Shown here in pieces: positions 15,239 through 48,159 of a DNA stretch of 50,768 bases. Position 1 is the first letter of the stretch; the number at the start of each line of letters is the position of its first letter. The notes beneath the pieces are model-generated. The model was not told the DNA's origin. It did not search any database and was given only the letters and a program-made list of their open reading frames with translations. The DNA is taken from the sequence record NC_101820.1. One strand, given 5' to 3'. Both the position numbers and the translations under genes were made by a program. The stretch comes from a phage.

Positions 15239-15256
15239 CATAAAAACATCTTGCAC

Positions 15257-15274
15257 GTTTAACAAAAAGTGCTA
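15257..15274 (-). promoter_or_regulatory. conserved motif, inverted, in the leader of the major capsid gene
   Basis: GTTTAACAAAAAGTGCTA on the plus strand about 45 nt upstream of the ATG; followed by hairpin GGCCGTT/AACGGCC. Confidence 0.4.
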
Positions 15275-15319
15275 TCATCTAGGCCGTTACATTTAACGGC
15301 CTTTTATGGAGGAAACAAA

Positions 15320-18968: not shown

Positions 18969-19008
18969 CATTCCTGTAAAATCAATCTATCAAATAAATT
19001 AATTCCAC

Positions 19009-19026
19009 TTTTAACAAAAAGTGCTA
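19009..19026 (-). promoter_or_regulatory. conserved motif, inverted, abutting the RBS of the tail chaperone gene
   Basis: TTTTAACAAAAAGTGCTA immediately followed by TAAGGAG and the ATG at 19042. Confidence 0.4.
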
Positions 19027-19041
19027 TAAGGAGATCTTAAG

Positions 19042-30445: not shown

Positions 30446-31501
30446 ATGAGTGATTTTAAAGCCTACACTAGCGAAGAAATGAGCAACGAGCTTTATCATG
30501 ATCCTAACGCGTGGACGGCTGAATATGTCAGCGGTTCCAGCCTGGCGGAGATTTACAGCACTTGCCCGGCGTACTGGAAGTACAAGCCGCGCCAGGAAAC
30601 TAAAGCACTTGTTTTCGGTACGCAGTCGCATACCAACTTTGAAAGCAAGGAGCTATTCGAAAAAACATATCGCCGCGCACCGTCGCAGGATGATTTTAAA
30701 GATCTGATCACTAGTCAAACGGCGTTAGCATCAAAGCTGAAATCTTTTGGCCTGAAAGGTACAACGGGTAAACAATACCCTGAATTACTGGAAATGCTGT
30801 ACAAGTGCGGCGAGGATCTCAATGTGTGGTGGCTTATCGAAATGATGGCAGAATGCCAGGCCGCAGCGGACGGAGTGCAGTTAATAGACGCTAAAGATTA
30901 TGATGCCTGTGTAGCGATGCGGCGCGTACTTGAGGCCATACCGGAGCATAACGCTTGCATGAACAGCCCAACCGCGCAGCGTGAAATGTCAATATTTGGG
31001 ATCATCAACGGCGTAAAAGTAAAAGTGCGTCTTGATCACGTTGACGTAAACAAGGATGTAAAGGCAACAATCATTAACGGTTACGACGAAAAAGGCAGGC
31101 CGATTTATGAAGAAGTCACCTATCCAGAAGCGGTGATTATCACTGACTACAAAACAACGGTTAGCGCAAATCCGGTTGACTTCCAGCGCCTGGCTTACAA
31201 TCACGGCTATTATCTTAAAATGGCTTTGCAACATGACTTATTCAAAAAGGCGTATCCAGACGAGGAAAGGCCAGTAATTGTAAGATTGCTTGCGCAGGAG
31301 AAGAAAGAGCCTTACTTGCCGCTTGCTTTCCGCATGAATATTGAGCAATTGAAGATCGGGCGCATCCAGTACATGAGCGTGATCAACAAGTTCAACGTTT
31401 GCCAGCAGTTAGACGAATGGCCTTCGTATGCAAACGGGCAACCGGAAATTGATCTTGATACTCCTGATTGGGTTCGTGCTCAATTCAGGCATTATCTTTG
31501 A
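30446..31501 (+). CDS. PD-(D/E)XK recombination exonuclease (RecB/Cas4-like nuclease domain)
   Basis: 351 aa; D...VIITDYKTT motif characteristic of PD-(D/E)XK nucleases; adjacent to Erf-like gene. Confidence 0.7.
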   Translation: MSDFKAYTSEEMSNELYHDPNAWTAEYVSGSSLAEIYSTCPAYWKYKPRQETKALVFGTQSHTNFESKELFEKTYRRAPSQDDFKDLITSQTALASKLKSFGLKGTTGKQYPELLEMLYKCGEDLNVWWLIEMMAECQAAADGVQLIDAKDYDACVAMRRVLEAIPEHNACMNSPTAQREMSIFGIINGVKVKVRLDHVDVNKDVKATIINGYDEKGRPIYEEVTYPEAVIITDYKTTVSANPVDFQRLAYNHGYYLKMALQHDLFKKAYPDEERPVIVRLLAQEKKEPYLPLAFRMNIEQLKIGRIQYMSVINKFNVCQQLDEWPSYANGQPEIDLDTPDWVRAQFRHYL

Positions 31502-31834: not shown

Positions 31835-32491
<657 letters not shown>

Positions 32492-32496
32492 TAAAC

Positions 32497-32516
32497 GGGG
32501 CGCTTGCGCCCCTTTT
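32497..32516 (+). terminator. terminator or attenuator hairpin
   Basis: GGGGCGC tt GCGCCCC followed by TTTTG. Confidence 0.55.
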
Positions 32517-32534
32517 GTCATAGGAGAAAACAAA

Positions 32535-32987
32535 ATGCACGTTATTACAGGTGAGATTCGAAAAGAGCCAAAAGTAAAGCAAATGCCTAACGGCAGCACG
32601 CTATATGTTATTGAGCTTTCCGAGCGATACAAAGACCGAGAAGGAAATTGGCAGTATACAAACTATGTGTTTTTCTTTAACGCGAAAACAGACGGCCTGA
32701 ATGGTTGGTATGCCGAGGCGTTCCAGGTAGGAAAGGTTGTTTCTGTTTCCTGCGATACCTTGCGAGTTGAAACGCGAGAATACAACGGAAAGATTTACAG
32801 CACCGTGCAGCCTGGCGGATTTGCAAACTTGCTATTTAGCCAGAGAGGTGAAAGCCAGCAACAATATCAGCAGCGAACGCAAGGAGGCTGGGGGCAACCA
32901 CAACAGCAACAGAAACAAAATACTCAACAGCAGCCGCAGCAAAGCAATCAGCCTCCGATTGACTTTGACGACGATATACCATTCTGA
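32535..32987 (+). CDS. ssb: single-stranded DNA-binding protein
   Basis: 150 aa with Q/G/P-rich linker and C-terminal acidic tail DFDDDIPF as in E. coli SSB; start refined to ATG 32535. Confidence 0.85.
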   Translation: MHVITGEIRKEPKVKQMPNGSTLYVIELSERYKDREGNWQYTNYVFFFNAKTDGLNGWYAEAFQVGKVVSVSCDTLRVETREYNGKIYSTVQPGGFANLLFSQRGESQQQYQQRTQGGWGQPQQQQKQNTQQQPQQSNQPPIDFDDDIPF

Positions 32988-36084: not shown

Positions 36085-37014
36085 TTATAGCAGTGATTCA
36101 GGCTTGTAGATTTTTCTTTCTACGCCATGTTTAAAATTATCGTTAACAGGCATCATTATGTCAAGCCCTCTTTCCTCTGCCGCGATTATCACATCACGAT
36201 AATCTTTCCGGCAGACTACGCGCATTCTTCTTTCTCCTTTATATCTATGCGCAACCATTTCAAGATTTGAAGGAGTAAAACAGGCCCACACCTCTTGACC
36301 AGTTGATAAATGAACATGCTGAGAATCAACCCAATCAAGGCACAAATAGATCGTCTTATCTGTACTACCTGTTTTAACAACAGATCCGCGCGTGTAGTCG
36401 CGAGCTAAAAACCAATCCTTTCCATCCTCATCAATGAAAAGCACGTTACACATTTCATCATCCAGCCCGTCATCATGCACCAGGTGACAAGGTAGCGCGT
36501 GAATGTATCGACCATCCTTGACGCCGCAATCATAATGACAATCTTCCGGCGGATATATCCCCTCATAAACGCTTAAAGGTGTGCGATCGAATTTTAATGT
36601 TTTTGCCATCACTTTTTCGCAACATTCATGACTTGCCTGTTTCCCGAACGAGTAACCAGAAGAACGCGAAGCGCGTTTGTTTGCTCTGATCCTGTAATCT
36701 TGCGGCACTTTTCCGAGGAAGCGGCCCAAAATGTTGATGGCCTCGCTGTAAGGTTCGCCAGTTAATTTCATTAACCAACCGATCCCCGTGTCGTTGCCGC
36801 ACACGTTGCAGATCGCGCCGCCGTCGCCCTCTTCATTTAGCTTATCAGTCCATCTAAAACGATCCTTACCGCCGCAGTGTGGGCAAGGTTGATGCTTTTT
36901 GTTGAAAACATCGCTATGCAGCCCGCAAATGCTTTGTAGTGCTTCACGCCATAACCCCTTCATATATGGCAAAACATCTTCTTTCTGATAGGTCATAAAG
37001 TTTTCAGTATTCAT
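36085..37014 (-). CDS. DNA primase with N-terminal zinc ribbon
   Basis: CPHCGGKDRFRW...CNVCG resembles the primase zinc-binding ribbon; start refined to ATG 37014. Confidence 0.7.
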   Translation of the reverse strand: MNTENFMTYQKEDVLPYMKGLWREALQSICGLHSDVFNKKHQPCPHCGGKDRFRWTDKLNEEGDGGAICNVCGNDTGIGWLMKLTGEPYSEAINILGRFLGKVPQDYRIRANKRASRSSGYSFGKQASHECCEKVMAKTLKFDRTPLSVYEGIYPPEDCHYDCGVKDGRYIHALPCHLVHDDGLDDEMCNVLFIDEDGKDWFLARDYTRGSVVKTGSTDKTIYLCLDWVDSQHVHLSTGQEVWACFTPSNLEMVAHRYKGERRMRVVCRKDYRDVIIAAEERGLDIMMPVNDNFKHGVERKIYKPESLL

Positions 37015-37069
37015 GGCAAACCTCAATAAAAAAGCCCAGCAAATATTATCATTTCGCTGGGCCTTATCA

Positions 37070-37546
37070 TTAGCTATTCGTGCTGTTATCACCTTTGTAG
37101 AATCTTCCGCCTGGTTCGTAGTCTGAATTTTTGACTACGCGCAACATTTCGTATTTGTCGCAACGGGTAGTAAGAGGCTTGCCGTTAGAATCAAACCGCA
37201 GATCTGGACGACAAAACGAGGCGCGGTATCCTTTGCATCCATTATATTTGTAGTCGTTATGCACCTTTTGTGCTCCAGCGGCTGAAATCATACCACGCTT
37301 TCGCCATTGGTTAACGACTTGCTGAGATACGCGCAGACGTCGAGCCATAGCAGGAACACCGCCGTAATACTCGATCAGAATGTCAAGGCGAGATTTCAGG
37401 CTTGCTTTTACCTCATCTCGCAGGATAAGAAATCCGGTTCGGTGTTTTCGTGGTTTTTTGTCTTTACCTCGTCGCGTTCCGTTGTTACCGTTAATAGTGC
37501 GCTTGTCGATCTCACCCGTAGATACTGCAATTCGTGCATCTTTCAT
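37070..37546 (-). CDS. HTH DNA-binding protein (Cro/CI-like regulator candidate)
   Basis: GGVPAMARRLRVSQQVVNQWRKRGMIS helix-turn-helix-like segment; divergent from the helicase gene. Confidence 0.55.
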   Translation of the reverse strand: MKDARIAVSTGEIDKRTINGNNGTRRGKDKKPRKHRTGFLILRDEVKASLKSRLDILIEYYGGVPAMARRLRVSQQVVNQWRKRGMISAAGAQKVHNDYKYNGCKGYRASFCRPDLRFDSNGKPLTTRCDKYEMLRVVKNSDYEPGGRFYKGDNSTNS

Positions 37547-37633: not shown

Positions 37634-39631
37634 ATGATTCCAAATATCGAAAAACAAATATCAGCATTAGGCGAGGCAGTAATAAAAAGCATCCAAGAGC
37701 GATTCACGGTTGGCAATATAGTGCCTTATCCTTATCAGTGCGTTGCGTATGCAGAGATCGCAAAGCGCATGAAAAACTATGAGCATCCTTTCTTTGTTAA
37801 GGCTTCTGTATCGGCTGGCAAAACATTGATGTTTGCGATGGTTGCGGCGCAATGCCGCAAAATGGGATTGAAAATGATGGTCCTTGCTCGCCAGGCTGAA
37901 ATTGTTGATCAGGATTCGGAAGAGATCAGCAATCTTGGCGTGCCAAACTCAATCTATTGCGCCGGACTGAAAACAAAAAGCGCATACTTTCCGATCGTAG
38001 TCGGTTCTGAGGGCACTGTAGTAAACGGATTGTTTAAGTCGTTAGGTGATTATGTTCCGCACGTTATCGGTATTGATGAATGTCACCAGGTGGATTGGGA
38101 GGATCTCGCGGACGCGATAGAAAATAATGAATCTTACCAGCAGATGACCACTAAGAAGGATTTGCCTGTACTGATTGGAGAAGAACAGCAATTTGATTCC
38201 AATGGCGATCCAATGTTCGGAACAGGGCGCACACAGTACACCGTAATAATCATGGAAATGATGCGTAGGTGTCGCGAGGCATACGGGCACGAATTGCGAA
38301 TATTCGGCATGACTGGATCTGAGTTTCGCGGCGTGGTTCCAATACTGGTTGAAGATAAGAACAAAAAGGGATTCTGGCGTGAGCAGGTGACTAACATAGA
38401 CACAAACTACTTAATCAAATTCGGTTCGGTAGTGCCAACAAACTTCGGCGACGTAGGCGACCTGGGTTATGACCTTTCAGAGTTCGAAGCCAGTAGCGAG
38501 GATGGCGTTTCAGACTTTGACGCTAAAACATTGCGCAAGATGGAAGAAAAGATCCATCAAGACGCAACAATGACACAGAAAATCATGGCTAAAGTCCATG
38601 AGATATGCAAAGACAGGAACGGAGTTTTAGTTACATGCGCAGGGGAAAGGCACTGCAAGGAGGCCGCCTCCGCACTGCCGCCAGGCGTTGAATACAGGAT
38701 CATAACTGGCAAGACTGGAGATAATCAGCGTAAAGAGTGGCTGAGGGAGGCATACGAGGGAAAAGTAAAATACATCTTCCAGGTACAGGCGCTTACCACT
38801 GGCGTTAACGTTCCGTTTTGGGATACTTCTGTAATACTGAGAAAGATAGGATCTCTAACATTGCTTATCCAGCTTTTGGGGCGCGGCATGCGACTGCTTA
38901 AGCAATGGCACATTGAGCAGGGATTCAAGAAAAAAGATCATCTTGTATTGGATTTTGCAGGTACTATGGATGAGTTAGGTGATTTGTATTTCGATCCAAT
39001 CCTTGAGCAAGCGCAATTCCAAAAGAGATTTACAAACGGGAAAGAGCCTAAGACTTGTCCGATATGTGGAACGCTAAACAGCTTTTACGCTCGCCGATGT
39101 ATGCACGTAGACGATAACGGGAAGCGATGTGAGCATTTTTGGACTTACAGAATTTGCGAGGACCAGGTAGATCAGAGAACGAAAAAGATAATCAAGCGCG
39201 GTTGCGGAACAAAAAACGACGTAGTGGCGAGAGTATGCCGTTGTTGCGATATTTCTCTTGTCGATCCTAACGAGAAGTTAAGCGGTAAGCACTACACCAA
39301 AAACGATTGGTGCAACGTTAAATCTTTCCTCGTTGATATGACGAAAAACCAGAAAGGAATTATTTTTTGCTATGAGCTTGAGGCCAACGGCGACACGTTC
39401 AAGGCATACGAAAGATTTTTCCCTGAGTCAGAAAGCAACATTTGCCGGACGATATGGAGAAAAATAGCATTGCAGCACATACCGGATCGCAAGATTGCTG
39501 GTATGGTGGCGAGCTATAGAAATGCTCGTAAAATAATGTCATACGCTCATCACATCATGCCGCCTGTACGCGTAACGCATCGCAAAAACGGCAAAGGTGA
39601 GGATAACATTGCAAAACGGGAGTTTGTTTAA
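37634..39631 (+). CDS. SF2 DNA helicase (DEAD/DEAH-like) with C-terminal Cys-rich region
   Basis: 665 aa; ASVSAGKT (Walker A-like), GIDECHQVD (DExH box) and C-terminal CPICG...C..C cluster. Confidence 0.8.
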   Translation: MIPNIEKQISALGEAVIKSIQERFTVGNIVPYPYQCVAYAEIAKRMKNYEHPFFVKASVSAGKTLMFAMVAAQCRKMGLKMMVLARQAEIVDQDSEEISNLGVPNSIYCAGLKTKSAYFPIVVGSEGTVVNGLFKSLGDYVPHVIGIDECHQVDWEDLADAIENNESYQQMTTKKDLPVLIGEEQQFDSNGDPMFGTGRTQYTVIIMEMMRRCREAYGHELRIFGMTGSEFRGVVPILVEDKNKKGFWREQVTNIDTNYLIKFGSVVPTNFGDVGDLGYDLSEFEASSEDGVSDFDAKTLRKMEEKIHQDATMTQKIMAKVHEICKDRNGVLVTCAGERHCKEAASALPPGVEYRIITGKTGDNQRKEWLREAYEGKVKYIFQVQALTTGVNVPFWDTSVILRKIGSLTLLIQLLGRGMRLLKQWHIEQGFKKKDHLVLDFAGTMDELGDLYFDPILEQAQFQKRFTNGKEPKTCPICGTLNSFYARRCMHVDDNGKRCEHFWTYRICEDQVDQRTKKIIKRGCGTKNDVVARVCRCCDISLVDPNEKLSGKHYTKNDWCNVKSFLVDMTKNQKGIIFCYELEANGDTFKAYERFFPESESNICRTIWRKIALQHIPDRKIAGMVASYRNARKIMSYAHHIMPPVRVTHRKNGKGEDNIAKREFV

Positions 39632-40090: not shown

Positions 40091-40130
40091 TCAATAACAC
40101 GAGATGGCTTTTAATAGCGGAGAAATGAAA

Positions 40131-40856
40131 ATGGCTAAAGATATTTTAGATAAAGACACACATGACGCATTCGTTAGCTTTGAGCAGTTGGAGAGAGAAA
40201 CGTTTATAGGAAATGCTCTTGCAACTGGAGGCCATTACCAGGCAGTAAAGCCAAATCAATATTATAAGGTAAGCGGCAACCGATACGCTGGAAGCACTAC
40301 GCCGGACGTTGTGCGCGATATGTGGAGCACGCCTCAAGAGATCGTGGAGTGGATGGAATCAGAATTTGGTGAATACGATCTCGACGCGGCAGCAAGCCAG
40401 GAAAACGCAGTTTGCGAGAAGTTCTACAGCAAGGAAACAAATTGCTTAAAGCGTTGGTGGGGTAGCAACAAGCACGTATGGCTTAACCCGCCGTACAGCA
40501 ACCCAACTCCATTTATCAAGAAAGCAATTGAGCAAATGGAGCACAACAACCAAATTGATGTTTTGTTGCCATCCGACAACTCTACAGCATGGTTTTATGA
40601 GGCGCAGAAAAACGCGGCTGAAATCATCTGGATTACTGGCGAGGTTTACGAAGAGGGGGGAGTGGAATATTCCCGCACCGGAAGAATCGCCTTTGTGTCT
40701 GGATTGACTGGCGAGCCTGTACAGGGCAACAATAAGGGGAGCGTGATTTTTGTCATGCGTAAACTTAAAGAAGGCGAAGAGCAGAAAACGCGATACGTTA
40801 AGATCAGCGATATTTGCCCTTCTGTAACCGAACGCCGCGCGCGCAAACGGAGCTAA
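40131..40856 (+). CDS. DNA N6-adenine methyltransferase (Dam-like)
   Basis: NPPY motif (WLNPPYSN); about 240 aa; start uncertain among ATGs 40104-40131. Confidence 0.75.
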   Translation: MAKDILDKDTHDAFVSFEQLERETFIGNALATGGHYQAVKPNQYYKVSGNRYAGSTTPDVVRDMWSTPQEIVEWMESEFGEYDLDAAASQENAVCEKFYSKETNCLKRWWGSNKHVWLNPPYSNPTPFIKKAIEQMEHNNQIDVLLPSDNSTAWFYEAQKNAAEIIWITGEVYEEGGVEYSRTGRIAFVSGLTGEPVQGNNKGSVIFVMRKLKEGEEQKTRYVKISDICPSVTERRARKRS

Positions 40857-43669: not shown

Positions 43670-44061
43670 TGAAGAAATTTTTAATCGCACCAATCGCAAT
43701 GGCGGTGATCTTGTCTGGATGTTCAAGCGTTACGCCACTGACAGGATTAATCGGCAGTAAGCCGGAAATCACAGCGCAGGCTGGCGCGGAGAACGTGAAG
43801 CAGACAGTTGGCATTACAGCAAGGCAGGACGCCAGCACAAAACAGGAAACCACAATAAAGGAATCTGCGGTTGACAAGGTGGACACGTCCAGCAAGAAGG
43901 ATTTCACAACATCAACTATTCAGGCCAATACCATCAAGGCAGACAAAATTCAGGTCGTGCAGGGTAATAACGGCAGATGGTACGATCCGGTAATCATATG
44001 CGTGGTTGTGTTAATTGTGCTGATTTGTCTTTACTGGAGAGAAAAGAAAAAGGAGGCTTAA
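43666..44061 (+). CDS. unimolecular spanin (T1 gp11-like)
   Basis: Lipoprotein signal [19 protein letters not shown] plus C-terminal transmembrane helix [16 protein letters not shown] in one polypeptide. Confidence 0.75.
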
Positions 44062-44078
44062 TGCCTCCTTTATTTTTA
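44045..44078. terminator. bidirectional terminator
   Basis: AGGAGGC ttaat GCCTCCT flanked by A-rich and T-rich runs, between convergent genes. Confidence 0.65.
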
Positions 44079-44300
44079 TGCGTCGGGCCACATATGAGTT
44101 TCGTTTGTTGGCTTGTTCGATTCGTCGTACTGCCTTACTTCAATGCTGCAAGTGTCGCCGTACATTTCTGCAATCTTGCGCTCATTTTCAACCGCCGATT
44201 GCTCACTCCAGCCTGAATCCTTATCGTAAACTGTCGGGATTTCAGAAGAAGATCCATTTGCATGATTGTATACGCGAACTACTAAAAACTTGCTGGACAT
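44076..44300 (-). CDS. hypothetical protein (74 aa)
   Basis: Start refined to ATG 44300 after AAAAAAGGAAAAATT; in frame with track ORF 44076..44351. Confidence 0.5.
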   Translation of the reverse strand: MSSKFLVVRVYNHANGSSSEIPTVYDKDSGWSEQSAVENERKIAEMYGDTCSIEVRQYDESNKPTNETHMWPDA

Positions 44301-44361
44301 AATTTTTCCTTTTTTGTTGGTTCGTTTCGATGAAACAAATATACCCGACACAAGGTCGGGA

Positions 44362-44380
44362 GTTTTAACAAAAAATGCTA
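44362..44380 (-). promoter_or_regulatory. conserved motif with CCCGAC/GTCGGG hairpin and TATATT at offset +37
   Basis: Minus strand TAGCATTTTTTGTTAAAAC; leader contains CATCGAAACGAACC. Confidence 0.5.
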
Positions 44381-44498
44381 TTCCATACGCTTTACTGTAA
44401 CCAATAACACACCATCATCATTGCATAAAACGTGTTCAGTGGTGCTAAAAGCTCGCATATCTGAATAAAGTAGCGTAAGTAAAGCATGAATAAAATCA

Positions 44499-44894
44499 TC
44501 ATGTGATATTGAATTTACGGCGCAGTGCTTCAAGATCTTGTCTATTAGCTTTTGCCTGGAACAATTCATCATCGCCCATCTCCCCTATTCTAGCCATATC
44601 CCTGATCCAGTCGTTGCGCATACCATCCAGGCTATAAAATTCGAATCCGAAAGGCCGCTTTGACGATCCTTTGGACCAGTATTTACCGCATACCCCATCT
44701 ATATAGCCAGCCGTCATCATTCTTGCGCAAAATTCCTTAGATGCAAGGCTGGCTAACATTCGCGGAGTAAGTCCGGCGGCCCGTGCGAGCCGCTCACATT
44801 CTCTATGCTGATAGATAAATTTGGCTATGTGCTGCCTGTTAAACCAGTCGTATGACTCACACCATTTATACAGATCAAGCAAAAACATAATCAT
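44499..44894 (-). CDS. hypothetical protein (131 aa)
   Basis: Track ORF; ATGA overlap with the upstream ATPase gene. Confidence 0.55.
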   Translation of the reverse strand: MIMFLLDLYKWCESYDWFNRQHIAKFIYQHRECERLARAAGLTPRMLASLASKEFCARMMTAGYIDGVCGKYWSKGSSKRPFGFEFYSLDGMRNDWIRDMARIGEMGDDELFQAKANRQDLEALRRKFNIT

Positions 44895-46471
44895 CCCAGC
44901 AGTATTGGATTGACAAAAATAACACCATTAATCACACAAACATAATTTCTTTCTTCCAGCATTGGCAGTAAGTGCCCTTCTATCCTTTTCATTACGCCAG
45001 CCTGACCAACGAAAGGTTTTACCTTTCTCGCTGATTCGTACAGGGCGCGGATATTCAGAATCCCTTTATTAGCCTTGCCGTGCCTCGTGATCAATTCAAT
45101 CAATTTACCCATTTCAGCATCATCACCAGCATAACCAGAAGCATTGGCGGCGCTAATGTATGTTTTGCTCAATTCCTGAAACATGATCAACGCCTCTTGC
45201 ATTGTTTCCACGTCGATCTCTTTCGACTTCTGCGGGTATCCGGCAGGATTAAACCAGTTACGGATAACATGCAGGACGGAAGCAAGCCTGATCACCTGTT
45301 TATCCATTTTACCCAGCGCACCGCGTAACATTGTATGAGAATACTTTCCTCCGTCTGCAAGATGCGGTTCCATATCCTGGCGAGCAATGTTGAGCACTCG
45401 CATAGCTGAACGGCTTATTTTCAGCGATATATTTGATTCGCTCATGATGTTATGCACCAATTGATAATATTGGGCTTTCAATTCAGAATCCACCGCCTCA
45501 TAGGTAGAATCACCATTTTCATCAATGAATGAGCGACGGCCTAAGAATGATTCCTCGCGGACCAACAAAAAACGCTCACTAACACCGATGCCTCGCGATC
45601 CAGCGTCCATGATTCCGCTTATCGTTTCATCCTGGGCTATAACGCTCATACATCCAAGCGCGCGAAAACTCATATTATTGTCAGCATTAGCACGGGCAAT
45701 TGATACGTGACCATTATCCCACGCCTTAAGCACTAACTCACTGTTAGTCTTCCTTTCGCTATTTGCATAGGTCAAGCCTAACAGACTGTTAATACTTGTT
45801 GCTTCATCAGATATTACGGCAAAGTTACCTTGCTTGTTGTTGATTTTCGCCAAGCCTTCTGGAGTTGTATCTGAAACAGGAAAAGTTATATCACACATTT
45901 TTTCCAGCTTTTCCTCCAGATCCTCTTTTTCCTGGTATAGAGATTCCATATCAGCGCCGGATCTTTCGCTTTTCATCTCCTTTGCAAGACCTGCCAGCTT
46001 TGCCTGTATTTTCTTTCTTTCCTTGCGGCGTTGCTCGTTGATCTTCTCAACTTCCGCAATCATCGGAGCAATAGCCATGCTGTTGATCGCAGATTTACCA
46101 GTTGACGGCGGCTGGCTTGTAACGACGTAAAGCGCAGTCGGCTGATCGGTTCCGTGATAGTCAACCGTAAAGCGTCCAAGCATAGCGGCAGAAATGCAGC
46201 CGATAAAGTGCATATAAGCCGATGATTCAGGGAATTGAACGGATCGCGCAATGCTGCGTGATAACTTGCCGACAACATCAATATCATTACCAAGAGAAAT
46301 AACGGGGTAGCGATCGTGACCGCTATTCACATCCTTTACGTCGCCCCAAAAGCTGGACGACTGGCGATAGCCGTTAGCCTGAATTGATACGCGAACTGGC
46401 GAAAGGTTCTGGCTTTCAGCCAGAGCGATTATTTGTTGTGGAGTTAATTTGTTCGTTTCTAATGAAAACAT
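44891..46471 (-). CDS. P-loop NTPase of unknown role (DUF3987-like, tentative)
   Basis: 526 aa; Walker A SQPPSTGKSA and Walker B-like FAVISDEATS; family assignment is from memory and unverified. Confidence 0.6.
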   Translation of the reverse strand: MFSLETNKLTPQQIIALAESQNLSPVRVSIQANGYRQSSSFWGDVKDVNSGHDRYPVISLGNDIDVVGKLSRSIARSVQFPESSAYMHFIGCISAAMLGRFTVDYHGTDQPTALYVVTSQPPSTGKSAINSMAIAPMIAEVEKINEQRRKERKKIQAKLAGLAKEMKSERSGADMESLYQEKEDLEEKLEKMCDITFPVSDTTPEGLAKINNKQGNFAVISDEATSINSLLGLTYANSERKTNSELVLKAWDNGHVSIARANADNNMSFRALGCMSVIAQDETISGIMDAGSRGIGVSERFLLVREESFLGRRSFIDENGDSTYEAVDSELKAQYYQLVHNIMSESNISLKISRSAMRVLNIARQDMEPHLADGGKYSHTMLRGALGKMDKQVIRLASVLHVIRNWFNPAGYPQKSKEIDVETMQEALIMFQELSKTYISAANASGYAGDDAEMGKLIELITRHGKANKGILNIRALYESARKVKPFVGQAGVMKRIEGHLLPMLEERNYVCVINGVIFVNPILLG

Positions 46472-46522
46472 TCGTTAGCTTCTCCTTTGTGGGCCGTAAA
46501 TTTTAACGGCCCAATACTACCC

Positions 46523-46541
46523 CGTTTTGTCAAAAAGTGCT
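46523..46541 (-). promoter_or_regulatory. conserved motif variant with TAAAAT in a GGGCCG/CGGCCC hairpin loop
   Basis: Minus strand TAGCACTTTTTGACAAAAC then hairpin then RBS AAAGGAG and ATG 46471. Confidence 0.5.
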
Positions 46542-46761
46542 ATTTGATCCGCTCTATTGCAACCAGAAGTCGATCAGGCTGGCGGTCGCTGTAGCATTCT
46601 CCTGTAATCCCATCCTTAAACGTAAAGTAAAGCGCCTTATGATATGAAAAACCAATCAGCCAACCTACCGCCGTTTTTTTGATTGGCCTGACTATATCGC
46701 CAGGCTTGAAAGTCTTTGTGGCAGAATGCGTTACTTTGTAACGGTTCTCACTGTTTATCAC
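46540..46761 (-). CDS. hypothetical protein (73 aa)
   Basis: Track ORF (GTG start as listed); my manual reading of this region differs from the track by one base near 46560. Confidence 0.4.
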   Translation of the reverse strand: MINSENRYKVTHSATKTFKPGDIVRPIKKTAVGWLIGFSYHKALYFTFKDGITGECYSDRQPDRLLVAIERIK

Positions 46762-47144
46762 AGATATTTGCCCTCAAACAGATAACATCCGCCAGCAGAG
46801 AATCCGACCTCTTCACGGTACAGGTTCCAGCGGTCGCCGCACTCATCAAAAACATAACCCGCAACGCTTCCAAGCGGTCGCCCTTTCTCGATCTGGTATC
46901 GCTTGCCCTGCTTAAAGTGCTTTTTGCACGGCATGTTATGATCTACAAACGTGCAAAGAACGGTTTTTGTGTTAATGACGCGGTAATCATCTCGGTTTGC
47001 TGGAAGCCAACGGCTACCCTTAACAAGCGTCTTAACCTGGAACTCTTCCAACTCGATCACATCATTACTTCCTGCAATCTTCTGATAAACCGTTTTAAAA
47101 CGGCCTTTCATCAATACGTTGGTTTCATTACAGATAACATTCAT
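46758..47144 (-). CDS. hypothetical protein (128 aa)
   Basis: Track ORF; ATG 47144 preceded by AAAGGAG. Confidence 0.55.
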   Translation of the reverse strand: MNVICNETNVLMKGRFKTVYQKIAGSNDVIELEEFQVKTLVKGSRWLPANRDDYRVINTKTVLCTFVDHNMPCKKHFKQGKRYQIEKGRPLGSVAGYVFDECGDRWNLYREEVGFSAGGCYLFEGKYL

Positions 47145-47197
47145 GATTAGATCTCCTTTGTTTGTTCGATGTGATTATGCCAGGTTTTTACACCTGG

Positions 47198-47216
47198 CTT
47201 TTAACAAAAAGTGCTA
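47198..47216 (-). promoter_or_regulatory. conserved 19-nt motif with GCCAGGTG/CACCTGGC hairpin and CATAAT at offset +37
   Basis: Minus strand TAGCACTTTTTGTTAAAAG then hairpin then CATAAT, CACATCGAAC, RBS and ATG 47144. Confidence 0.5.
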
Positions 47217-47930
47217 TTTTGAGTTTGACTCAAATACGGCGCGAGCAAAGCCGCGCGGAGTGAGGGAGCGGATCATCTTTGTGCGCGATGACTTGCCGCC
47301 AGTTTTGGCCCAGCCTGGATTATCTTTGTCTTCCTCTTTCGGCAGGATTAAAGCGCGTGGAGGAATAACAAAGCCATTGCCAGTCCAGAGGCACGTTTTC
47401 TTAAAGTAGCGATCCCGCGCCGGAATAATATCAGGGAAGTCGGGATGTTTATCATCTTCCGGCAGATAGCCAGCGTAATCGCACGGATGGAACGTATAAT
47501 CAGGTTTTCGCCATAACGTTGACAACTTGCCAACCGGATTTTCGATCATGTAAGGAACACCGAAATAATCAGCTATATCATCCGCGATTCTGCAAGTGTC
47601 GGCGGCCTCATCCTGGAACGATGGATTCTCAAGGCGTTTTTTGGCCCAATGGCGAGATCCGCTATTTGCAAGGTCGGTGCAAGGAGGGAACGCCATAATA
47701 AAATCAGGATTGCCCCACTCATTATTGATTGCCTTAACATAAAAAGCATCATCAATCCAGACGTTAACGTATTCGATATTCTCATGCTGTATGCGCACTG
47801 ACTGGTAATCACCGTGATCGCCGCCGTCAGCATTAAAGCAAATGCACTTATAGCCATTATCAGCCCAATCTTTAACGGCTTTACCAGATCCATCAAATAG
47901 GGAGAATATTAAACCTTTATACATCGTCAT
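47214..47930 (-). CDS. C5-cytosine methyltransferase-like protein
   Basis: Motif I-like IFSLFDGSG, motif IV-like FPPCTDLANSG (catalytic Cys) and motif VI-like MIENPVG; start refined to ATG 47930. Confidence 0.55.
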   Translation of the reverse strand: MTMYKGLIFSLFDGSGKAVKDWADNGYKCICFNADGGDHGDYQSVRIQHENIEYVNVWIDDAFYVKAINNEWGNPDFIMAFPPCTDLANSGSRHWAKKRLENPSFQDEAADTCRIADDIADYFGVPYMIENPVGKLSTLWRKPDYTFHPCDYAGYLPEDDKHPDFPDIIPARDRYFKKTCLWTGNGFVIPPRALILPKEEDKDNPGWAKTGGKSSRTKMIRSLTPRGFARAVFESNSK

Positions 47931-47934
47931 TACC

Positions 47935-48159
47935 TCAAAACGGAAAACAGCGCGGACAACCAGGATCGAAATCGCATCCACAATCATTAACAATCATAGT
48001 TGGATCTGCAAATATTGCGCTTGATTCAAGATCCATATCCATATCACCTAAAGCCTCATCAAGACTCTTAATTTTATATGCCACTTCAAGCGCCGCCTCT
48101 TTATTTAGTCCGGCATCTTCTGCCATTTGAAGGCGCTCAAAAAATCCGTCTTGACTCAT
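47935..48159 (-). CDS. hypothetical protein with C-terminal Cys cluster (74 aa)
   Basis: Track ORF; C-terminus CGCDFDPGCPRCFPF. Confidence 0.5.
   Translation of the reverse strand: MSQDGFFERLQMAEDAGLNKEAALEVAYKIKSLDEALGDMDMDLESSAIFADPTMIVNDCGCDFDPGCPRCFPF

What the first reader, a model, noticed from the sequence alone, without database searches (positions are those of the whole stretch)
44891..46471. Large P-loop NTPase of unclear role in the leftward arm
A 526-aa protein with Walker A (PPSTGKS) and Walker B-like (VISDEAT) motifs is expressed from its own motif promoter, co-transcribed with a 131-aa partner (44499..44894). It is distinct from the SF2 helicase and the primase elsewhere in the genome. 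It could be a replication initiator or helicase loader, or an ATPase acting in exclusion or anti-defence.
Basis: partly seen in the sequence, partly recalled or inferred. Interest (0 to 1): 0.45.

Follow-up and report, generated by a model that had tools for sequence, protein, structure and literature searches.

The report
T1-type phage MCM-like replication helicase
The 526-aa ATPase is the orthologue of phage T1 gp9, a DUF3987-family MCM-like DNA helicase that public records already annotate as "DNA helicase", so the finding is real but ordinary.

Summary
The role is not unclear. The protein is a full-length member of Pfam DUF3987 (153 bits against a cutoff of 27) and of PHROG 2373, "DNA helicase". 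It is 99.8% identical to proteins of Warwickvirus phages (Drexlerviridae) and 58% identical over its whole length to T1 gp9. The partner is 51% identical to T1 gp10, in the same position beside the lysis cassette.

The most likely role is the phage's hexameric replicative or initiator helicase, working with the separate Zn-ribbon primase and, since T1-type phages encode no DNA polymerase, a host one. The partner has a winged-helix fold, occurs only in Drexlerviridae, and has no known role. The loader, exclusion and anti-defence readings have no support. No experiment exists for any T1-like orthologue.

The parts
46524..46543 (-). 20-nt family-wide intergenic repeat (ATAGCACTTTTTGACAAAAC), followed 19 nt later by TAAAAT. 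It is the presumed promoter or UP-like element for the helicase operon.
   Evidence: 15 copies in the window against 0 expected, all but two oriented with the downstream genes. T1 has 9 copies. The same repeat was described in TLS as a 21-nt direct repeat of unknown role. Promoter function is inferred.
46482..46487 (-). Shine-Dalgarno sequence AAGGAG, 10 nt upstream of the ATG
   Evidence: Read directly from the sequence.
44891..46471 (-). DUF3987-family MCM-like (SF6) AAA+ DNA helicase, 526 aa; orthologue of T1 gp9
46091..46111 (-). Walker A / P-loop, PPSTGKS (residues 121-127)
   Evidence: G125 and K126 are invariant in 70/70 family members.
45896..46090 (-). 65-residue charged helical hairpin (residues 128-192) inserted after the Walker A helix
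   Evidence: The AF2 secondary structure shows helices 126-168 and 172-191. The insert is present in all 70 aligned members, at 59-73 aa. It gives weak coiled-coil matches in Pfam. Its role is unknown.
45797..45817 (-). Walker B, VISDEAT (residues 219-225)
   Evidence: E223 is invariant in 70/70. D222 is Asp in 35 members and Ala in 30. The motif lies on strand 217-221 of the model.
45662..45709 (-). Beta-hairpin at residues 255-270 carrying invariant R260. Inferred to be the pre-sensor-1 hairpin that lines the DNA channel.
   Evidence: Strands 255-258 and 267-270 in the model. R260 is invariant in 70/70. The assignment rests on analogy with MCM and is inferred.
45569..45580 (-). SERF (residues 298-301). 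R300 is the inferred trans-acting arginine finger, resembling the MCM 'SRF' motif.
   Evidence: R300 is invariant in 70/70 and E299 is present in 66/70. The motif immediately precedes strand 301-305. The assignment is inferred.
44894..45070 (-). C-terminal winged-helix domain (residues 468-526)
44499..44894 (-). 131-aa partner, orthologue of T1 gp10, mislabelled 'YdbL' in some records. A small winged-helix protein, translationally coupled to the helicase.
44378..44572 (-). 64-aa ORF overlapping the 3' end of the partner gene in another frame; possibly a third gene of the operon
   Evidence: phrog_9539, E=7e-26. It is not annotated in the phage tonn RefSeq record.
44344..44381 (-). The next copy of the 20-nt repeat (44362-44381), followed by a GC hairpin and T-rich tail (44344-44360). 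This marks the likely end of the helicase operon and the start of the next unit.
36085..37092 (-). Separate Zn-ribbon DNA primase, the presumed partner of the helicase at the fork. The annotated orthologue is 309 aa, so the true start is probably near 37014.
   Evidence: Pfam Zn_Ribbon_Prim. It matches only positions 6-316 of the 667-position phrog_510 profile. Annotated as DNA primase in tonn and T1.
37634..39631 (+). SF2 helicase (ResIII and Helicase_C), followed by a VRR-NUC nuclease gene. This is the genome's other helicase and the rival candidate for the fork helicase.

Best explanation
The gene encodes the phage's replicative or initiator DNA helicase, a DUF3987-family AAA+ enzyme with an MCM-like (superfamily 6) motor.

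Shown here:
- Family membership.
- The MCM-like fold with a C-terminal winged helix.
- Invariant ATPase residues: K126, E223, R300, K388.
- Orthology and conserved synteny with T1 gp9 and gp10.
- Fusion of relatives to primase modules.

Inferred:
- Host RNA polymerase transcribes the helicase and the small winged-helix partner as one operon, starting at the repeat element at 46524-46543.
- The helicase forms a ring, probably a hexamer, with ATP sites between subunits. K126 and E223 act in cis and R300 in trans.
- It pulls single-stranded DNA through the central channel using the R260 beta-hairpin and so unwinds phage DNA.
- The separate Zn-ribbon primase (36085..37092) makes the primers. Because T1-type phages encode no DNA polymerase, a host polymerase extends them.
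- The C-terminal winged helix, the partner, or both may supply origin or DNA recognition, or contacts within the replisome.
- Polarity is probably 5'->3', as measured for the one characterised family member, AgaPH.
For: - Pfam DUF3987 scores 153 bits against a cutoff of 27, covering residues 81-430. PHROG 2373 'DNA helicase' matches at E=3e-244.
- RefSeq annotates the 99%-identical genes as DNA helicase.
- T1 gp9 is 58% identical over its full length. T1 gp10 is 51% identical to the partner. Both lie in the same position, convergent with the holin-endolysin-spanin cassette.
- The gene is found in 925 phage records, 911 of them full length.
- G125, K126, E223, R260, R300 and K388 are invariant in 70 diverse members.
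- Longer relatives carry a DnaG zinc ribbon, a DnaB N-terminal domain or PriCT-2 ahead of the same domain.
- Relatives at 36-41% identity sit beside Zn_Ribbon_Prim primase, SF2 helicase, DUF3799 exonuclease, AAA_24 and SSB genes.
- Kazlauskas et al. 2016 classed phage DUF3987 proteins as SF6 replicative helicases with a C-terminal wHTH (PMC4889955).
- AgaPH, a PriCT-DUF3987 protein, is an oligomeric, ATP/dATP-dependent 5'->3' helicase. It needs its Walker A and B motifs and binds its primase-polymerase (PMC11724360).
- The window's primase matches only the N-terminal half of a primase family profile.
- T1 and TLS encode no DNA polymerase.
Against: - No experiment exists for any T1-like orthologue. 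I found none in the searchable literature.
- In this genome the primase is about 7.8 kb away and is paired head-to-head with the SF2 helicase. The TLS paper treats that SF2 helicase as the replication helicase.
- Ring assembly, polarity, essentiality and the use of a host polymerase are all inferred.
- From memory and unverified: a 1980 study by Bourque and Christensen reported that T1 DNA synthesis needs host 'elongation' dna genes. If those include dnaB, the fork-helicase role would be weakened.
- The residue-level match to MCM motifs was not tested by a profile or structure alignment that I could inspect.
Confidence: 0.75

Rival explanations
1. It is a helicase but not the fork helicase. 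It would act only at initiation, melting the origin as a self-loading initiator like SaPI Rep or P4 alpha, or in replication restart or recombination-dependent replication. The SF2 helicase next to the primase, or host DnaB, would drive the fork.
For: The SF2 helicase and the primase are paired head-to-head, and the T1/TLS literature treats them as the replication pair. The DUF3987 protein has a C-terminal winged helix and a winged-helix partner, which could recognise an origin. SaPI Rep proteins combine initiator and helicase roles.
Against: The SF2 helicase is followed by a VRR-NUC nuclease. From general knowledge, that arrangement is typical of branch-migration and resolution modules rather than fork helicases. 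DUF3987 domains take the position of DnaB, MCM or RepA domains in primase fusions. No iterons were found in or near the gene.
Confidence: 0.17
2. It is an AAA+ helicase loader or remodelling ATPase that recruits host DnaB to phage DNA, in the manner of lambda P or DnaC.
For: The phage lacks a polymerase and depends on host replication proteins. The protein is an AAA+ ATPase with a small DNA-binding-type partner.
Confidence: 0.04
3. It is an ATPase used for superinfection exclusion or anti-defence rather than replication.
For: The gene lies in an arm rich in small early genes. Two genes upstream is the orthologue of the SECphi27 protein that triggers Mokosh type I. Replication proteins are frequent targets of defence systems.
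Against: PADLOC gives no match. The gene is a conserved, full-length core gene across Drexlerviridae subfamilies and beyond, unlike fast-turnover accessory genes. Relatives are fused to primase modules. No escape mutations were reported in it in the SECphi27 dataset I read.
Confidence: 0.03

Closest known systems
Phage T1 gp9 (ST9, YP_003936.1, 'DNA helicase') with gp10 (ST10)
   Same: Orthologues. The helicase is 58% identical over its full length and the partner 51% identical. Gene order and position are the same, convergent with the lysis cassette.
   Different: T1 has an HNH endonuclease gene (gp8) directly upstream, overlapping the helicase start, and no copy of the 20-nt repeat there. 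In this window the helicase has its own repeat element, and upstream lie a 73-aa and a 128-aa gene. Neither protein has been characterised.
AgaPH, the PriCT-DUF3987 helicase of a pAgo-associated mobile element (Seonamhaeicola sp.; NAR 2025, PMC11724360)
   Same: Same Pfam family (DUF3987), with conserved Walker A and B motifs and a small C-terminal domain. It is the only biochemically characterised member: oligomeric, ATP/dATP-dependent, 5'->3' unwinding, and it binds its primase. A protein with the same architecture, P0227 (PriCT_2 + DUF3987), matches the query at E=3e-37.
   Different: AgaPH has an N-terminal PriCT domain and is encoded next to an AEP primase-polymerase. The window protein has a short helical N-terminus with no PriCT, and its primase is a Zn-ribbon type encoded 7.8 kb away.
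MCM helicases (archaeal and eukaryotic MCM2-7) and the prophage BcMCM of Bacillus cereus
   Different: Sequence identity is only 12-18%, and no member hits the Pfam MCM model. There is no beta-rich OB or zinc N-terminal domain. A 65-residue helical hairpin is inserted after the Walker A helix. MCM and BcMCM move 3'->5', whereas the characterised DUF3987 member moves 5'->3'.
Self-loading initiator-helicases of mobile elements: SaPI Rep/PriRep, SCCmec Cch (DUF927) and P4 alpha
   Different: They belong to different families (DUF927, D5 or SF3-like). Rep proteins move 3'->5' and bind their own origins. Origin binding by the window protein is untested.
Phage N4 dns protein (DUF3987 fused to an AEP domain)
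   Same: According to Kazlauskas et al. 2016, it is a DUF3987-family helicase domain in a virulent coliphage and is essential for N4 replication.
   Different: N4 dns carries a C-terminal AEP primase domain. The window protein has no primase domain. I did not compare the sequences here.

Membership tests
Pfam DUF3987 (PF13148) helicase family | Match to the family HMM above the curated gathering score | tested here: met
   153 bits against a cutoff of 27, E=1.7e-44, residues 81-430 covering profile positions 3-350 of 364. All 70 aligned relatives also match.
Pfam DUF3987 (PF13148) helicase family | Conserved Walker A lysine and Walker B glutamate | tested here: met
   G125, K126 and E223 are invariant in 70/70. 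The Walker B Asp (D222) is present here but is Ala in 30/70 members.
Pfam DUF3987 (PF13148) helicase family | [quoted passage not shown] | tested here: met
Pfam DUF3987 (PF13148) helicase family | Association with a primase, by fusion or by an adjacent gene | tested here: inconclusive
   The genome encodes a Zn-ribbon primase, but 7.8 kb away on the same strand. Relatives are fused to Zn_ribbon_DnaG, DnaB N-terminal or PriCT_2 domains, or lie within a few kb of a primase gene.
Pfam DUF3987 (PF13148) helicase family | ATP-dependent DNA unwinding by an oligomer (5'->3' in AgaPH) | not testable with these tools
   Known only for AgaPH. It needs purified protein.
Superfamily 6 / MCM-like AAA+ motors | AAA+ fold closest to MCM and its clade (MCM, MoxR/RavA, Mg-chelatase BchI, ComM) | tested here: met
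Superfamily 6 / MCM-like AAA+ motors | Trans-acting arginine finger and a pre-sensor-1 beta-hairpin | tested here: inconclusive
   An invariant R300 in 'ERF' precedes strand 301-305, and an invariant R260 lies in the hairpin at 255-270. These fit the expected features, but I could not inspect a residue-level superposition.
MCM family proper (Pfam PF00493 with the N-terminal OB/zinc domain) | Sequence match to the MCM model and the MCM N-terminal OB-fold/zinc domain | tested here: not met
   None of the 70 members hits the MCM model, even at E<=1. Profile and sequence searches of the PDB find no MCM. The N-terminal 96 residues are helical or coil. The protein works like an MCM-type motor but is not a member of the MCM family.
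DnaB/SF4 (RecA-fold) replicative helicases | RecA-type core with DnaB_C motifs | tested here: not met
AAA+ helicase loaders (DnaC/IstB, lambda P) | Match to loader families, or an initiator-clade AAA+ fold | tested here: not met
Known defence or anti-defence ATPases (PADLOC models) | Match to a PADLOC model | tested here: not met
   No hit at E<=0.1 for the helicase, the partner or the two upstream genes.

The most novel reading that the evidence does not exclude
The helicase and its winged-helix partner may form a two-part origin-recognition and self-loading module specific to Drexlerviridae. An MCM-fold motor running 5'->3', the opposite of MCM, would then be coupled directly to a bacterial DNA polymerase III holoenzyme and a Toprim-type primase. 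That would be a natural hybrid of an archaeo-eukaryotic-type helicase and a bacterial replisome, in which the 65-residue helical hairpin or the partner replaces the DnaB-tau and DnaB-DnaG contacts.
Probability: 0.2. Interest if true: 0.5.

Novelty: already known. Interest (0 to 1): 0.15.

Why it matters
As a discovery it matters little. The gene is already annotated as a DNA helicase in RefSeq, and its family was assigned to replicative helicases in 2016 and supported biochemically in 2025.

It has some practical value. It clarifies which of the two helicases in T1-like phages is the probable fork helicase, since recent T1/TLS literature still points to the SF2 enzyme. It also marks a tractable E. 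coli phage system for three open questions:
- How does an MCM-fold motor work with a bacterial polymerase?
- What polarity does it have?
- What does the conserved winged-helix partner do?

Tried and rejected
- **PDB by sequence.** Single-sequence and profile searches found only chance coiled-coil matches to the helical insert. No solved relative is detectable by sequence.
- **NCBIfam and PADLOC.** No hits.
- **Relaxed Pfam scan.** Scanning all 70 family members to catch weak MCM or AAA matches gave only coiled-coil noise.
- **Sigma-70 scan.** The simple scan found nothing upstream of the gene, and its overall count was below the shuffled expectation. The repeat element was found by eye and then by pattern search.
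- **Iterons or origin-like repeats** in 43900-47300. Only the promoter-associated repeat and chance-level pairs were found.
- **Partner versus a distant downstream gene.** The 126-aa gene that follows a distant DUF3987 gene (L004) shows no similarity to the partner (hhalign probability 0.2%). The partner is not conserved outside Drexlerviridae.
- **BFVD fold search with the partner.** It returned only the partner's own uncharacterised orthologues, plus fragmentary Vibrio phage Vc1 entries that are probably mis-called ORFs.
- **Literature on escape mutants or defence triggers in this gene.** Nothing found.
- **Classical T1 host-gene requirement papers.** They are not in the library.
- **First structure-prediction attempt.** I repeated it without T1.

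Full report
**Observation**

The minus-strand ORF 44891..46471 encodes 526 aa from an ATG start. An AAGGAG ribosome-binding site lies 10 nt upstream. PPSTGKS is residues 121-127 and VISDEAT is residues 219-225. The 131-aa ORF 44499..44894 begins in an ATGA overlap with the helicase stop codon. Most orthologues start two codons later, at MFLLDL. In either case the two genes are translationally coupled, and nothing between them looks like a promoter or terminator above chance.

At 46524-46543 (minus) lies ATAGCACTTTTTGACAAAAC, followed 19 nt later by TAAAAT. This is one of 15 copies of ATAGCACTTTTTGTTAAAAC (up to 3 mismatches) in the window, with none expected by chance. Nearly all copies are intergenic and point the same way as the downstream genes. 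T1 has nine copies. In phage TLS the same 21-nt direct repeat has been described, and its role left open between UP-like element, enhancer site and 'stoperator' (PMC11447400). The sequence observation is therefore confirmed, but promoter function remains an inference.

**Genome identity**

The region is 99.6% identical to Escherichia phage swan01 and about 99% identical to tonn, orkinos, SECphi27 and others. These are Drexlerviridae, subfamily Tempevirinae, genus Warwickvirus. RefSeq annotates the gene as 'DNA helicase'. The partner is annotated 'YdbL', apparently a label copied from one annotation to the next.

**Family**

The protein matches Pfam DUF3987 (PF13148) at 153 bits against a gathering score of 27, over residues 81-430. 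It matches PHROG 2373 'DNA helicase' end to end at E=3e-244. NCBIfam, PADLOC and sequence searches of the PDB give nothing.

tblastn finds the gene in 925 phage records, 911 of them full length, mostly phages of Klebsiella, Escherichia, Salmonella, Shigella and Citrobacter. An exhaustive phmmer search of 1.84 billion cluster representatives gives 2,634 relatives at E<=1e-3.

T1 carries the orthologous pair. T1 gp9 is 58% identical over its whole length, and T1 gp10 is 51% identical to the partner. Both sit in the same place, convergent with the holin-endolysin-spanin cassette.

**Structure**

- Next come RavA (10.9), the Mg-chelatase subunit BchI (10.5) and MCM8.
- Then the SCCmec helicase Cch (9.7), SaPI5 PriRep (8.8), ComM (8.5) and BrxL (8.2).

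This agrees with Kazlauskas et al. 2016. By profile comparison, they placed phage DUF3987 proteins in helicase superfamily 6, distantly related to MCM. They noted a C-terminal wHTH and frequent association with AEP or DnaG primases, and they proposed that these proteins are replicative helicases (PMC4889955).

Across the 70 members, the conserved residues are:
- G125 and K126 (Walker A), invariant.
- E223 (Walker B glutamate), invariant. The preceding Asp is Ala in 30 of the 70 members.
- R260, invariant. It lies in the beta-hairpin at 255-270.
- R300, invariant. It lies in an 'ERF' motif just before strand 301-305.
- K388, invariant. It lies in the lid region.
- Q280, at the end of the sensor-1 strand, present in 69/70.

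I read R300 as the arginine finger, because 'ERF' resembles the MCM 'SRF' motif. I read the R260 hairpin as the pre-sensor-1 DNA-binding hairpin. Both are inferences from position and conservation, since I could not inspect a residue-level superposition.

One feature sets the family apart from MCM. A 59-73-residue charged helical hairpin follows the Walker A helix (residues 128-192 here) and is present in all 70 members. The N-terminal 96 residues are helical or coil, not the OB/zinc domain of MCM. No member hits the Pfam MCM model. The protein is therefore an MCM-like motor but not a member of the MCM family proper.

**Context in relatives**

Longer relatives carry a DnaG-type zinc ribbon, a DnaB N-terminal (primase-binding) domain or a PriCT-2 domain ahead of the same DUF3987 domain. 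Relatives at 36-41% identity from unrelated phage contigs lie beside a Zn_Ribbon_Prim primase, an SF2 helicase, a DUF3799 exonuclease, an AAA_24 ATPase and SSB.

In this window the same set of genes is present but more dispersed:
- Primase, 36085..37092 (minus).
- SF2 helicase, 37634..39631, followed by a VRR-NUC nuclease.
- DUF3799-type exonuclease, 30446..31501.
- Erf, 31838..32491.
- SSB, 32484..32987.

The primase matches only positions 6-316 of a 667-position primase profile. This fits a split arrangement in which the helicase function is supplied in trans.

T1 has no annotated DNA polymerase, and the TLS paper says the same of T1 and TLS.

**Biochemical precedent**

The PriCT-DUF3987 protein AgaPH elutes as an oligomer. 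[quoted passage not shown] It needs ATP or dATP and intact Walker A and B motifs, and it binds its primase-polymerase (PMC11724360). A protein with that architecture (P0227) matches the query at E=3e-37. MCM, BcMCM and the SaPI Rep proteins move 3'->5', so the polarity of the T1-type enzyme is a genuinely open detail.

**The partner**

The 131-aa protein is phrog_2794, of unknown function. It occurs in 834 phage records, with nearly the same taxon breakdown as the helicase. All 92 detected cluster representatives are 49% or more identical and come from T1-like contigs.

The partner is therefore a lineage-specific winged-helix protein. A role in DNA or origin recognition, or in bridging the helicase to other proteins, is plausible but untested.

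**Most likely mechanism and rivals**

My best explanation, at about 0.75, is that this is the phage's ring-shaped replicative or initiator helicase. It would work with the separate Zn-ribbon primase and a host polymerase.

The main rival, at about 0.17, is that it acts only at initiation, restart or recombination-dependent replication, while the SF2 helicase or host DnaB drives the fork. The head-to-head pairing of primase and SF2 helicase favours that view, and so does the T1/TLS literature. Against it, the VRR-NUC gene behind the SF2 helicase points to a branch-migration and resolution module. DUF3987 domains also occupy the position of DnaB, MCM or RepA domains in primase fusions.

The loader reading and the exclusion or anti-defence reading have essentially no support.

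What is missing is any experiment on a T1-like orthologue. I found none. I could not retrieve the 1980 work on the host dna genes that T1 needs, which I cite from memory only.

**Verdict**

It is already annotated as a helicase, belongs to a described and biochemically sampled family, and keeps its synteny in T1. I rate interest at 0.15. The residual interest lies in how an MCM-fold motor couples to a bacterial polymerase, which polarity it has, and what the conserved winged-helix partner does.

Noticed in passing
window 46758-47144 (minus strand), two genes upstream of the helicase: This 128-aa ORF (phrog_2684, unknown function) is 125/128 identical to the SECphi27 'protein of unknown function (128aa)'. 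Expression of that protein triggers the Mokosh type I defence system, and its mutation lets the phage escape (Stokar-Avihail et al., bioRxiv 10.1101/2022.08.27.505566). It has its own copy of the 20-nt repeat at 47198-47217.
   Followed up: partly
window, 15 sites: + strand 793, 2356, 3806, 6441, 37558, 40047, 41118; - strand 15256, 19008, 29999, 44362, 46524, 47198, 49116, 50421 (start coordinates): The 20-nt repeat ATAGCACTTTTTGTTAAAAC occurs 15 times, with 0 expected. It is usually followed about 18 nt later by a (C/T)ATAAT-like hexamer, often with a GC hairpin in between. It is conserved in T1 (9 copies) and was described in TLS as a 21-nt direct repeat of unknown role.
   Followed up: partly
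window 15256-15275 and 19008-19027 (minus strand); T1 locus L002 15067-15086 and 18831-18850: Two copies of the repeat point against the flanking plus-strand structural genes, and T1 has copies at the equivalent sites, before the major head gene and before the tail chaperone genes. If the repeat is part of a promoter, these copies would drive antisense transcription. This is unexplained.
   Followed up: no
window 44378-44572 (minus strand): A 64-aa ORF overlaps the last 74 nt of the partner gene in another frame and matches phrog_9539 (E=7e-26). It is not annotated in the phage tonn RefSeq record.
   Followed up: partly
window 36085-37092 (minus strand): The primase matches only positions 6-316 of the 667-position phrog_510 'DNA primase' profile, that is, its N-terminal half. 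The T1 record describes its primase as similar to P4-type alpha proteins.
   Followed up: no
phage records MG065685.1 and about 20 others named 'Campylobacter phage': About 21 records labelled Campylobacter jejuni phages carry this helicase (88% identity in the listed record MG065685.1), the partner and the primase of T1-like coliphages. This looks like mislabelling or contaminating coliphage sequence.
   Followed up: no
T1 locus L002 46085-46624; phage records MT360681.1 (2019SD1), NC_007291.1 (Jk06), MN158211.1 (BEK1-23): Homing-type HNH endonuclease genes sit at this locus in some relatives. T1 gp8 abuts the helicase start. The helicase match is split into 3-5 pieces in Jk06 and 2019SD1. 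A homing endonuclease lies next to the partner gene in BEK1-23.
   Followed up: no
alignment A2, column of residue 222 (window 45806-45808): The Walker B aspartate is replaced by alanine in 30 of the 70 family members, while the following glutamate is invariant. This is an unusual Walker B for an active ATPase family.
   Followed up: no
window 47214-47993 (minus) and 40104-40856 (plus): The genome carries two DNA methyltransferase genes: a phrog_757 methylase in the same leftward arm as the helicase, and a Dam-family enzyme in the rightward replication and repair arm.
   Followed up: no
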